A DNA stretch of 30,735 nucleotides. Source: Candidatus Hermodarchaeum yapensis. Its GTDB lineage: Archaea; Asgardarchaeota; Hermodarchaeia; Hermodarchaeales; Hermodarchaeaceae. A program made the translations under genes and the position numbers. The notes below the pieces were generated by a model. The model ran no database searches. It was not told the DNA's origin and was given only the letters and a program-made list of their open reading frames with translations. Positions 4,533-5,907 of this stretch are shown here, one piece after another (position 1 is the first letter of the stretch; every line of letters starts with the position of its first letter). The stretch covers positions 1 to 30,735 of the forward strand of contig JAEOSK010000029.1 in assembly GCA_016840405.1 (NCBI GenBank), written 5' to 3'.

Positions 4533-5009
4533 CTATTGGCTTTCCGTGGTGTCCTGCATCTGTCCTTGTTCAAAAATGCGTTGGAGAAGAACAGAAAAAC
4601 TCCGAGCTATGTTTTCGCTGCGTTTTTTCCGTGACTGCTGTGTGCCCGTGTCATACAACAGAAACTGTTCCTGTAACACATTCACGGCATCAGAGATTGA
4701 AAAAAACCCACTTAACCAGCCATACGCAATCATGGCTTCAACGCAATCTCCCAGTCCATGGGCATCCAGACGGGATGGAGCGAGGTGACGGAGTTCTGCA
4801 AAGCGTAGTGCTGCCGCAAGAATTTTCCCTGAAACTTTTTCTGCCCCAAAATTTTGCGAGTGAAGGGAGTAAGCAAGAGAAAACAATAAGTTAGTTAACG
4901 GGTCGCCAAGCTTCGCGAGATCTTTTCGTCGCATTGCTGCTTGAATCGAATCAATTCCTTCGCTTTCAAGAAGTGTTTTAAGACTCTTGAGTTCCGTCAC
5001 GCCGGTCAC
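4533..5009 (-). CDS. Archaeal RNase III-family protein (mini-III-like, no dsRBD)
   Basis: KDLAKLGDPLTNLLFSLA and GDCVEAMIAYGWL resemble RNase III signature motifs; GTG start overlaps the rpoL stop (GTGA). Confidence 0.8.
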   Translation of the reverse strand: MTGVTELKSLKTLLESEGIDSIQAAMRRKDLAKLGDPLTNLLFSLAYSLHSQNFGAEKVSGKILAAALRFAELRHLAPSRLDAHGLGDCVEAMIAYGWLSGFFSISDAVNVLQEQFLLYDTGTQQSRKKRSENIARSFSVLLQRIFEQGQMQDTTESQ

Positions 5010-5296
5010 GCGGCTTTAAGGGCTTTCTGAAACTCAGATCGCAGCTCCTCGGTTCGGTCGATAAGTTTCTTTGCGGCTTTTCGAAAAACATTAATGGCTT
5101 TAGCTTTGCCATCGGTTCGGACGATGAATTGAGAACTCCGGGTTAGAGGGTGGGGAACAGAATAGCCGGCAAAGGTTAGATGGTCATCTTCGAATAGAAT
5201 TTCACGAAGTGGATTACACAGTGTGTGGCCTTCACCTTCAATTTCTAGCTCTAATTCTCTGGAGGTGTTTTTGATTACTTTGATGTTCATAGTCAT
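5006..5296 (-). CDS. rpoL: DNA-directed RNA polymerase subunit Rpo11 (L)
   Basis: ELEIEGEGHTLCNPLR...FAGYSVPHPL RPB11/L signature. Confidence 0.96.
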   Translation of the reverse strand: MTMNIKVIKNTSRELELEIEGEGHTLCNPLREILFEDDHLTFAGYSVPHPLTRSSQFIVRTDGKAKAINVFRKAAKKLIDRTEELRSEFQKALKAA

Positions 5297-5348
5297 CGAA
5301 CCTTTACATGAAGTGTCTAAGGAGCAGGCAGACCGTACACAACTCCGC

Positions 5349-5361
5349 TTTTAACCTTGTC
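5349..5361 (-). promoter_or_regulatory. Candidate BRE/TATA for rpoL-rnc-tfs
   Basis: Minus strand GACAAGGTTAAAA, about 55 nt upstream of the rpoL start. Confidence 0.4.
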
Positions 5362-5404
5362 GGAGATAAGTCCTCTTCTTTCAGGTGGGAGATGAATCAA
5401 GGGG

Positions 5405-5410
5405 TTTATA
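5405..5410 (+). promoter_or_regulatory. Candidate TATA box for the structured ncRNA
   Basis: TTTATA about 22-27 nt before the start of the GC-rich structured segment at ~5432. Confidence 0.45.
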
Positions 5411-5431
5411 GAATTTTTTGCAACAGCTCTA

Positions 5432-5680
5432 GGTATGCCCGACTGGAACCCTATTGCACCAGTCATTACGTGGCAGGGCGGCATCTACACACATGAAGCC
5501 CCCTCCAGCATATGCAAGAAATTCCCCTGAACAAGGGGCAGGTGTGGGGCGGAGCAGCGTCAGAACCTAGCAAGTTTCGGGCCCAAAGCGCCTCGGCGAC
5601 GAGCGTAACAGGAAGGAAAAGTCCGAAGCCCCTACATCCAAGGGAGGGAGGATGTCACAGTCTTGCTTTAACAGGGCTAG
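5432..5680 (+). ncRNA. Putative structured ncRNA; 3' part resembles an IS200/IS605 right end / TnpB omega-RNA
   Basis: Stems: GACTGG(5441-46)/CCAGTC(5459-64); ATGCC(5435-39)/GGCAT(5480-84); CCCCT/AGGGG (5524-38); GGTGTGGGGC(5541-50)/GCCCCTACATC(5628-38); TTCGGGC(5576-82)/GTCCGAA(5621-27); CTCG-GCGA-CGAG GNRA hairpin (5592-5603). Ends GAAGCCCC...GGGAGGATGTCAC (5625-5658). Confidence 0.55.
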
Positions 5681-5682
5681 TC

Positions 5683-5907
5683 TCATGGAGTAGGGGTGTG
5701 TTTGAATTCACGGTACACGGCTTGGGAACGGTTCACTGCTATTCGAACCTGTGTAGGGTCACCACGAATGGTGACGGTGATGCCTCGTTGATCGGCTTTA
5801 ACTTGGAAGTCAAGTTTTAGTTTGCGTTTTAACTGGTCGATAAAGGTAACTTGGGCTTCTGCACCGGTTAAGGGAAATGTGAGGCTCTTTTTTGTCCATC
5901 GAGCCAC
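5683..5907 (-). CDS. Small protein resembling the N-terminal domain of DUF2067 (short or truncated)
   Basis: Pattern KSLTFPL...FIDQLKRK...VKADQRGITVTIRGDPTQVRIAVNR and position between csl4 and rpoL, where DUF2067 lies in other archaea; only 74 aa; GTG start with purine-rich SD. Confidence 0.55.
   Translation of the reverse strand: MARWTKKSLTFPLTGAEAQVTFIDQLKRKLKLDFQVKADQRGITVTIRGDPTQVRIAVNRSQAVYREFKHTPTP

What the first reader, a model, noticed from the sequence alone, without database searches (positions are those of the whole stretch)
5400..5680. Orphan structured RNA with candidate promoter and an IS200/IS605 (TnpB omega-RNA-like) 3' end, with no tnpB gene
Seen: the largest intergenic gap in a very compact region. 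It is GC-rich, has at least six stems including a GNRA hairpin, is preceded by TTTATA (5405) and is antisense to the csl4-rpoL run. It ends GAAGCCCC-TACATCCAAGGGA-GGGAGGATGTCAC. Known: archaeal IS605/IS1341 right ends typically read GAAGCCCC...GGGAGGA(T/A)GTCA(C/G), and the TnpB guide RNA is made from this end plus about 16-20 nt of flanking DNA. Inference: this is either a non-autonomous IS605 remnant or a stand-alone omega-RNA with extra 5' domains that guides a TnpB/TldR-like protein in trans. The predicted guide is AGTCTTGCTTTAACAGGGCT (5659-5678). A domesticated RNA-guided system in a core archaeal operon would be novel.
Basis: partly seen in the sequence, partly recalled or inferred. Interest (0 to 1): 0.78.

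Follow-up and report, generated by a model that had tools for sequence, protein, structure and literature searches.

The report
Protein-less mini-transposon carrying a guide-RNA gene
The gap between two core genes of this Asgard archaeon holds a 304-base, protein-less IS200/IS605-type mini-transposon made of a promoter and a structured RNA that looks like a stand-alone TnpB guide RNA: a known kind of selfish element, not a domesticated system.

Summary
Window 5355-5658 (+) is a discrete, GC-rich element of 304 nt. It has a conserved TATA box (5406-5411) and a ~225-nt RNA supported by covariation, ending ...GGAGGATGTCAC.

It is mobile DNA:
- The genome holds six copies.
- Ten relatives in the genus, including the nearest, have an empty site reading ...TTTTAA|AGTGTTGC.... 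Insertion was therefore exactly 3' of TTTAA with no target duplication, the IS200/IS605 signature.
- Its left end resembles the left ends upstream of tnpB genes in the same genome.
- A second RNA-only family in this genome has the same layout, and its RNA is clearly homologous to tnpB 3' ends.

No tnpB lies upstream in cis of any of the ~60 copies examined, here, in relatives or in metagenomes. Each copy's "guide" matches only its own flank.

Best reading: a PATE-like mini-IS that expresses a stand-alone omega-RNA used in trans by TnpB to re-cut the empty site. Stand-alone omega-RNAs and PATEs are already described (PMC10691335, PMC10055086).

The domestication idea is not supported. The partner TnpB and expression of the RNA remain untested. 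Other first-stage readers of this scan flagged sister copies in this genome with the same reading.

The parts
5350..5354 (+). Target/transposon-adjacent motif TTTAA, immediately 5' of the element's left end
   Evidence: The empty site in 10 genus relatives reads ...CGCTTTTAA|AGTGTTGC.... By my reading of the alignment and the L071 sequence, TTTAA precedes the left end in 15 of 16 copies with an intact left end.
5355..5658 (+). Whole non-autonomous IS200/IS605-type mini-element (304 nt), with no protein gene
   Evidence: Six copies in the genome with sharp shared boundaries. Present or absent as a precise block between TTTAA and AGTNTTGC, without target-site duplication.
5355..5405 (+). Left end (CCTTGTCGGAGATAAG..hairpin region..GATGAATC), related to the left ends upstream of tnpB genes
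   Evidence: nhmmer and blastn matches of element positions ~2-92 to regions just upstream of tnpB starts, e.g. C40:35004-34921, C14:141055, C67:13260. The hairpin in this copy is thermodynamically weak.
5406..5411 (+). Archaeal TATA box TTTATA, the element-internal promoter
   Evidence: Conserved as TTTATA or TTTAAA in almost all copies, including those with a degenerate left end, and ~25 nt upstream of where strong conservation begins. The same position holds the TATA box that precedes tnpB start codons in full-length elements. Promoter activity is inferred, not measured.
5433..5658 (+). Structured RNA scaffold (~225 nt), omega-RNA-like, ending at the right end ...GGAGGATGTCAC
   Evidence: Alignment A1 of 25 copies. 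92.3% of cells are paired, and 20 pairs carry double changes against 8.4 +/- 2.1 in shuffles. Insertions fall in loops: 58 nt in the apical loop of the CCCCU/AGGGG hairpin of the G009 copy. CM R2 finds the RNA in 18 of 151 Asgard genomes.
5592..5603 (+). CUCG-GCGA-CGAG hairpin with a GNRA tetraloop
   Evidence: Read directly. It is replaced by UUCCC-GUGA-GGGAA in the Borrarchaeum and G037 copies, which is compensatory.
5626..5651 (+). GAAGC + terminal right-end hairpin (CCCCUAC...GGGAGGG)
   Evidence: Helix 12 has 5 of 7 pairs with compensatory changes. The architecture matches tnpB right ends in this genome, GAAGC..hairpin..(T/C)AGTTCAC.
5659..5678 (+). Flanking DNA that would be transcribed as the guide (AGTCTTGCTTTAACAGGGCT)
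   Evidence: It equals the sequence next to TTTAA in the empty sites of relatives, one mismatch to G002 over the aligned part. Over the first 16 nt with up to 3 mismatches, there is no other TAM-flanked match in the genome. Guide function is inferred.

Best explanation
Window 5355-5658 is a protein-less derivative of an IS200/IS605-family (IS1341-type, tnpB-only) insertion sequence, comparable to a PATE. It sits 3' of the motif TTTAA in the rpoL-orf74 intergenic region.

It keeps three parts: the left end, the left-end TATA promoter (5406-5411) that in full-length elements drives tnpB, and a ~225-nt structured RNA that runs to the right end.

Proposed mechanism (inferred):
1. Transcription starts near 5433 and reads through the right end at 5658 into the flank. 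This gives a scaffold plus a 16-20-nt guide (5659-5678).
2. One of the TnpB nucleases encoded elsewhere in the genome binds this RNA in trans.
3. The complex recognises TTTAA followed by the guide sequence, which is the empty donor site left after excision or present on a sister chromosome.
4. Cutting that site provokes recombinational repair that restores the element.

Movement itself needs a Y1 TnpA transposase supplied in trans.

Shown here: mobility, boundaries, target motif, left-end relatedness, RNA-level selection, and absence of tnpB in cis.
Inferred: transcription, TnpB binding, cleavage.
For: 1. Six copies in the genome, 83-85% identical, with sharp common ends.
2. A precise empty site...TTTTAA|AGTGTTGC..., in 10 relatives of the genus including the nearest (G002). 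There is no target duplication.
3. TTTAA precedes the left end in 15 of 16 copies with an intact left end (my reading).
4. Left-end positions 2-92 match the regions just upstream of tnpB start codons. These share the ..GAGAAG-hairpin-GATGAATC-TATA layout.
5. The genome carries at least 28 tnpB-like loci. Several are full length with HTH_OrfB_IS605, OrfB_IS605 and Cas12f1-like TNB domains.
6. tnpB right ends read GAAGC-hairpin-(T/C)AGTTCAC. This element's right end reads GAAGC-hairpin-GGATGTCAC.
7. A second RNA-only family (15 copies) has the same left end + TATA + RNA + right end plan. The 3' 95 nt of its RNA are homologous to tnpB 3' ends, E 1e-11 to 1e-15 genome-wide. This is an internal precedent for the architecture.
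8. The RNA structure is supported by covariation and by insertions confined to loops.
9. The TATA box is conserved even in copies whose left end is degenerate.
10. The guide region equals the empty-site sequence next to the TAM.
11. Stand-alone omega-RNAs that work in trans, and PATEs encoding omega-RNAs, are described in PMC10691335 and PMC10055086.
Against: - No statistically supported homology links the RNA body to any tnpB-linked omega-RNA. nhmmer against tnpB 3' ends gives E of 8 or worse. CM R1, built from tnpB-linked and group-2 RNAs, hits only the terminal hairpin at E 0.62. CM R2, built from this RNA, hits only the six copies in the genome.
- None of the ~60 instances examined has tnpB upstream in cis. 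No 'master' element is known and the cognate TnpB is unidentified.
- No Y1 TnpA was found in this 86%-complete genome, and it was found in only 1 of 15 genomes of the genus.
- The left-end hairpin of this copy is weak, so this copy may be immobile.
- No expression data could be obtained.
Confidence: 0.7

Rival explanations
1. It is a mini-transposon, but the RNA has no guide function. The conserved interior serves only DNA-level needs, such as single-strand DNA folds recognised by the transposase, or it is a decaying remnant.
For: No cognate TnpB or tnpB-linked homologue of the scaffold was found. IS200/IS605 elements transpose as folded single strands (established knowledge; PMC10055086). The copies are 15-17% diverged.
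Against: TnpA recognises short subterminal hairpins, not 225 nt. Covariation runs across 12 helices. A TATA box sits at a fixed distance from the conserved core and is kept even where the left end is lost. Insertions occur only in loops. The core is conserved across six Asgard families. All of this points to selection on a transcript.
Confidence: 0.12
2. It is a domesticated, host-serving RNA-guided regulator (TldR-like) that controls the csl4-rpoL gene cluster or a distant target.
For: It sits in the conserved promoter-like block upstream of rpoL. G009, a more distant species, carries a copy at the same site. Some copies (G009_C83, G004_C158) have lost the canonical left end but keep the promoter and RNA at an orthologous site.
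Against: The site is empty in the nearest relative and in nine other members of the genus. The element is multicopy with unrelated flanks. None of the six guides has a second TAM-flanked match in the genome. The guides of the orthologous immobilised pair diverge after 9 nt.
Confidence: 0.05
3. The RNA guides or serves a partner other than TnpB, such as another transposon-encoded effector, or it is an independent small RNA carried by the element.
For: The scaffold has never been seen joined to tnpB in ~60 instances from six Asgard families. Copies cluster by genome rather than by orthologous site, as if tracking a genome-specific partner.
Against: The left end, TAM logic, right-end hairpin and variable 3' flank all fit TnpB-type elements. 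The parallel group-2 family is demonstrably derived from a tnpB omega-RNA. No Rfam family matches.
Confidence: 0.1
4. It is a known housekeeping or catalytic RNA: RNase P RNA, SRP RNA, a group I intron or a riboswitch.
For: Its size (~225-300 nt), GC richness, GNRA loop and a GGAAAAGUCC string recall RNase P conserved region I (my recollection of the RNase P consensus). Another first-stage note suggested a group I-like core for a sister copy.
Against: No Rfam hit at gathering score in the window, and none to these families at E up to 10 in 5250-5750. The genome's RNase P RNA is elsewhere, at C17:9705-10091 with 166 bits. It has six copies and is absent from many relatives.
Confidence: 0.01

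Closest known systems
PATEs (palindrome-associated transposable elements): protein-less IS200/IS605 derivatives that often encode omega-RNAs (Meers et al., PMC10055086)
   Same: No protein gene. IS200/IS605-type left and right ends. Insertion next to a short motif without duplication. Multicopy in a genome that also holds tnpB elements. The RNA runs to the right end.
   Different: Here the scaffold has no detectable tnpB-linked counterpart. The element carries a conserved archaeal TATA promoter fused directly to the RNA. The host is an Asgard archaeon.
Stand-alone omega-RNAs of OMEGA systems, shown to work in trans with compatible effectors (Altae-Tran et al. 2021, as summarised in PMC10691335)
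   Same: A mobilised guide-RNA locus without an effector or transposase, in a genome with effector-containing loci. The guide comes from the flank.
   Different: Compatibility with any TnpB of this genome is untested. Sequence and covariance searches do not connect it to their omega-RNAs.
The 'group 2' RNA-only element family of the same genome (e.g. C3:55697-55900, C73:34162-34373)
   Same: Same plan: T-rich TAM..GAGAAG-hairpin-GATGAATC left end, TATA box, RNA about 25 nt downstream, terminal hairpin, abrupt end.
   Different: Group 2 follows TTTAT, has a ~143-nt RNA ending TAGTTCAC, and its 3' 95 nt are clearly homologous to tnpB 3' ends. The element studied here follows TTTAA, has a ~225-nt RNA ending GGATGTCAC, and has no such link.
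TldR: exapted, nuclease-dead TnpB homologues with guide RNAs acting as transcription factors
   Same: An RNA-guided TnpB-type system that could act near a host promoter.
   Different: No adjacent or dedicated protein. Not fixed at the locus. The guide targets only its own empty site.

Membership tests
IS200/IS605-family transposable element (non-autonomous, PATE-like) | Multiple copies with defined, asymmetric left and right ends | tested here: met
   Six copies in the genome and more in relatives. Boundaries are common: a left end beginning (C/T)TTGTCGG and a right end ...GGATGTCAC.
IS200/IS605-family transposable element (non-autonomous, PATE-like) | Insertion 3' of a specific 4-5-nt motif without target-site duplication; seamless empty site | tested here: met
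   The empty sites read TTTTAA|AGTGTTGC. The filled site reads TTTTAA-[304 nt]-AGTCTTGC. TTTAA lies 5' of the left end in 15 of 16 copies (my reading).
IS200/IS605-family transposable element (non-autonomous, PATE-like) | Ends related to those of protein-coding family members in the same genome | tested here: met
   The left end matches regions upstream of tnpB (best E 1.6e-5 in a small database; nhmmer E 0.006-0.4 genome-wide). The right end shares only the GAAGC-hairpin-GT(T)CAC architecture.
IS200/IS605-family transposable element (non-autonomous, PATE-like) | Subterminal hairpins at both ends | tested here: inconclusive
   The right-end hairpin is supported by covariation. The left-end hairpin is clear in other copies and in tnpB left ends but weak in this copy, with a fold no better than shuffles.
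IS200/IS605-family transposable element (non-autonomous, PATE-like) | A Y1 (HUH) TnpA available to mobilise it | tested here: not met
   PF01797 gives no match in this 86%-complete genome and a match in 1 of 15 genomes of the genus. This is usual for archaeal tnpB-only elements. It bears on current mobility, not on family origin.
TnpB omega-RNA (reRNA) | A structured scaffold ending at the right end, followed by a variable flank that serves as guide | tested here: met
   Conservation stops at 5658 in all copies and the flanks are unrelated. The structure is supported by covariation.
TnpB omega-RNA (reRNA) | Sequence or structure homology to an RNA encoded at the 3' end of a tnpB gene | tested here: not met
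   nhmmer E of 8 or worse. CM R1 gives E 0.62 on the terminal hairpin only. CM R2 gives no tnpB-associated hit in the genome. No tnpB lies upstream in relatives or metagenomes.
TnpB omega-RNA (reRNA) | The guide plus TAM matches the element's own empty donor site | tested here: met
   Relatives read TTTAA + AGTGTTGCTTTAACAGG. The guide here reads AGTCTTGCTTTAACAGG.
TnpB omega-RNA (reRNA) | Expressed, and bound by TnpB to direct DNA cleavage | not testable with these tools
No binding test was attempted.
Rfam families (RNase P, SRP, group I intron, IS605-associated motifs) | Covariance-model score at or above the gathering threshold | tested here: not met
   No hits. Bona fide tnpB-linked 3' ends of this genome also get no hit above threshold, so Rfam says nothing either way about omega-RNA identity.

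The most novel reading that the evidence does not exclude
This RNA may be an independent, long-lived 'RNA-only' transposon lineage of Asgard archaea. It is found in six families and has never been seen joined to tnpB. On this reading, its scaffold has diverged from every tnpB-encoded omega-RNA and evolves in concert within each genome because it depends on a particular trans-acting effector: a dedicated TnpB clade that lacks a matching RNA of its own, or a non-TnpB protein. That would be guide and nuclease living as separate mobile genes, a step towards the split arrangement of guide array and effector seen in CRISPR.
Probability: 0.15. Interest if true: 0.7.

Novelty: new member of a known kind. 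Interest (0 to 1): 0.36.

Why it matters
It shows that Asgard archaeal genomes carry families of promoter-plus-guide-RNA mini-transposons alongside many tnpB genes. These add guide sequences without adding nuclease genes.

For annotation, it explains an odd GC-rich gap inside a conserved gene cluster for transcription and the RNA exosome. It also gives exact boundaries, the target motif (TTTAA) and a covariance model for finding more copies.

If a matching TnpB were identified, the compact scaffold and its TAM would be one more programmable nuclease system from the lineage closest to eukaryotes. As it stands, this is an ordinary selfish element of a described type.

Tried and rejected
- Rfam at gathering score over the whole window, and at E up to 10 over 5250-5750: nothing relevant.
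- RNase P idea, prompted by GGAAAAGUCC: rejected. The genome's RNase P RNA is on C17.
- tRNA/tmRNA scan: none in the window.
- Residual TnpB coding signal in the element, by tblastn of 28 TnpB ORFs: none.
- nhmmer of the RNA profile against tnpB 3' ends: nothing.
- CM R1 from tnpB-linked and group-2 RNAs against 13 copies: only the terminal hairpin, E 0.62.
- CM R2 against the own genome: only the six copies.
- Search for tnpB upstream of copies in relatives, GTDB genomes, metagenome contigs and divergent Asgard hits. None was found upstream in cis. Upstream ORFs checked were housekeeping (aminotransferase, DUF1847). The only tnpB seen near a copy were a tail-to-tail IS in C14 and L105, one downstream tnpB in G064 (L143), and a tnpB C-terminal fragment ~1.2 kb upstream in G049 (L142).
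- Secondary targets of the six guides next to a TAM: none. One search was the same search with unusable, oversized output.
- A tail-upstream pseudoknot (GGCAUCU with GGAUGUC) seen by eye: no covariation, so dropped.
- Left-end hairpin folding: not better than shuffles for this copy.
- Tree of copies, to decide whether the G000 and G009 insertions at the same site are orthologous: unresolved. Copies group by genome.
- No complex or structure prediction was run, because no specific partner could be nominated.

Full report
**What is there.** The window comes from an Asgard archaeon. Copies of the element in GTDB genomes carry titles such as Candidatus Hermodarchaeota, Promethearchaeota and Candidatus Borrarchaeum. 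The finding lies between rpoL (5006-5296, minus strand) and a conserved 74-aa ORF (5683-5907, minus strand). These sit in a minus-strand run of TFS, an RNase III-like gene, rpoL, orf74, csl4 and a methyltransferase. No Rfam family matches at gathering score, and none relevant at E up to 10. There are no tRNAs in the window. The genome's RNase P RNA is on another contig.

**It is a repeated, mobile unit.** The stretch has five further copies in the same genome at 83-85% identity. Aligning the copies with their flanks, and an nhmmer profile search, place the common unit from just after a conserved TTTAA to ...GGATGTCAC. The flanks are unrelated on both sides.

The rpoL-orf74 interval of eleven other members of the genus settles the boundaries. 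Ten of them, including the nearest relative (G002, 94-100% protein identity in the neighbouring genes), have an 80-100-nt gap reading ...CTCCGCTTTTAA|AGTGTTGCTTTAAC.... The window has exactly 304 nt (5355-5658) between TTTTAA and AGTCTTGC, with no duplicated target. Insertion 3' of a fixed pentanucleotide, no target duplication and a seamless empty site together form the signature of IS200/IS605 peel-and-paste elements (established knowledge; PMC10055086). By my reading of the alignments, TTTAA precedes the left end in 15 of 16 copies with an intact left end.

**Relation to tnpB elements.** The genome has at least 28 loci matching the TnpB zinc-ribbon/TNB domain. Several are full length with HTH_OrfB_IS605, OrfB_IS605 and Cas12f1-like TNB domains. 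It has no Y1 transposase, and only 1 of 15 genomes of the genus has one.

The first ~90 nt of the element match the DNA just upstream of several tnpB start codons. All share the plan T-rich motif..GAGAAG, hairpin, GATGAATC, TATA box, then about 25 nt to the start of the gene. In the mini-element, those 25 nt instead lead to the start of the conserved RNA.

tnpB right ends in this genome read GAAGC-hairpin-(T/C)AGTTCAC. The element's right end reads GAAGC-hairpin-GGATGTCAC.

A second RNA-only family (15 copies, preceded by TTTAT) has the same plan. The 3' 95 nt of its 143-nt RNA are plainly homologous to the last ~90 nt of the main tnpB group, E 1e-11 to 1e-15 genome-wide, with compensatory changes in a shared hairpin. 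That family is an internal precedent. In this genome, deleting tnpB fuses the left-end promoter to the omega-RNA region.

**The RNA.** Twenty-five copies from eight genomes of the genus, plus G037 and Borrarchaeum, align over the core 5430-5658. The consensus fold has 46 pairs in 12 helices:
- 92.3% of cells are paired.
- 20 pairs carry double changes, against 8.4 +/- 2.1 in shuffles (0 of 500) and 5-11 when partners are slid.
- The terminal hairpin has 5 of 7 pairs with compensatory changes.
- The GNRA hairpin CUCG-GCGA-CGAG (5592-5603) becomes UUCCC-GUGA-GGGAA in distant copies.
- A 58-nt insertion in the G009 copy sits in the apical loop of the CCCCU/AGGGG hairpin.

The single-sequence fold is not unusually stable (z = -0.9), so the support comes from comparison between copies, not from energy. 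The TATA box is conserved at a fixed distance, even in copies whose left end has been replaced.

A covariance model of the 3' 122 nt finds the RNA in 18 of 151 sampled Asgard genomes from six families, with up to nine copies per genome.

**What could not be shown.** The RNA body has no supported homology to any tnpB-linked RNA. Rfam also misses the bona fide tnpB 3' ends of this genome, so its silence is uninformative.

Among ~60 instances examined in the genome, relatives, GTDB genomes, metagenome contigs and divergent Asgard hits, none has tnpB upstream in cis. In contig C14, a 1.37-kb tnpB element lies tail-to-tail with a copy. Comparison with G005 shows that this element inserted later, 2 nt beyond the copy's right end. 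One copy in G064 lies upstream of an unrelated tnpB.

The cognate nuclease is therefore unknown. Elements whose left ends also follow TTTAA (C6:1174, C24:8196, C73:7231, C67:13260) are the obvious candidates on TAM grounds, but their own RNAs differ. Expression could not be checked.

**Domestication.** The site is empty in the nearest relative. The element is multicopy. Each of the six guides matches only its own flank; no other TAM-flanked site has 3 or fewer mismatches over 16 nt. The guide here equals the empty-site sequence next to TTTAA. That is the arrangement expected for selfish homing to the vacated donor site (PMC10055086). Nothing points to a host function.

**Known or new.** Stand-alone, mobilised omega-RNAs that function in trans, and PATEs that encode omega-RNAs, are in the literature (PMC10691335; PMC10055086). 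This is a new member of that kind. Its modest peculiarities are an Asgard host, an internal TATA promoter, and a scaffold family never seen attached to tnpB. Other first-stage readers of this scan flagged sister copies in the same genome with the same reading.

Confidence that it is an IS200/IS605-type mini-element is about 0.9. Confidence that its RNA is a trans-acting TnpB guide is about 0.6-0.7.

Noticed in passing
window 5318-5354 and 5659-5675; relatives L053-L062, L066: The element split a block, GCAGGCAGACCGTACACAACTCCGCTTTTAA|AGTGTTGCTT, that is more conserved across the genus than the flanking coding DNA. On the rpoL strand it reads ..CACTTTAAAAGCGGAG.., a TATA-like box about 60 nt upstream of the rpoL ATG. 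The insertion therefore landed inside a probable rpoL promoter, leaving TTAAAA but replacing what lies upstream.
   Followed up: partly
G009 locus L055/L046 versus window 5355-5658: The same TTTAA site is filled in G000 and in the more distant G009. It is empty in ten others of the genus, some of them (G002, G010, G006) nearer to G000 by rpoL identity than G009 is. Either the ancestral insertion was lost by repeated seamless excision, or insertion at this site recurred. The tree of copies does not decide.
   Followed up: partly
alignment A1; tree: Element copies group by genome (for example G005_C158/C160/C14 and G000_C18/C8/C76) rather than by orthologous site, although flanks show that G000_C67 = G005_C158 and G000_C14 = G005_C160 are orthologous insertions. 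The left end of such pairs is near-identical, while the 5' part of the RNA carries genome-specific variants. This suggests gene conversion or co-evolution with a genome-specific partner.
   Followed up: partly
G000 contigs, e.g. C3:55697-55900, C73:34162-34373, C14:111562-111772, C19:28427-28569 (15 copies): A second RNA-only mini-element family has TAM TTTAT, the same left-end and TATA plan, and a ~143-nt RNA ending TAGTTCAC. Its 3' 95 nt are homologous to the 3' ends of the main tnpB group.
   Followed up: yes
G000:C14:94507-95877 (locus L033): A 1.37-kb tnpB element (ORF 94907-95839, right end ..GGAGAGTGTCAAA, left flank ..GGATTACA) inserted 2 nt beyond the right end of the C14 mini-element copy, tail to tail. 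The orthologous G005 locus lacks it. The C14 copy's 'guide' is now the end of that tnpB element.
   Followed up: yes
L035 (G009:C83) and L031 (G004:C158): An orthologous pair of copies has lost the canonical TTTAA and left end but keeps the TATA box and the whole RNA. Their 3' flanks agree for only the first 9 nt. These may be immobilised copies.
   Followed up: no
L120, L127, L114 (group-2 and tnpB-linked RNA loci): Weak, sub-threshold Rfam matches to RAGATH-18 (23-27 bits against a 44.9 cut-off) fall on the hairpin region of the tnpB-type omega-RNAs of this genome.
   Followed up: no
window 5683-5907 (-): A 74-aa ORF with no Pfam match is conserved (59-95% identity) between csl4 and rpoL in all genus relatives that include this region. 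It is absent from that position in the more distant Asgard genomes examined.
   Followed up: no
L071 6494-6790 (Borrarchaeum weybense) versus L032 (G037): The B. weybense copy lacks the promoter segment present in the G037 copy. The ends of the missing piece share CCGAC, which suggests deletion between short direct repeats.
   Followed up: no
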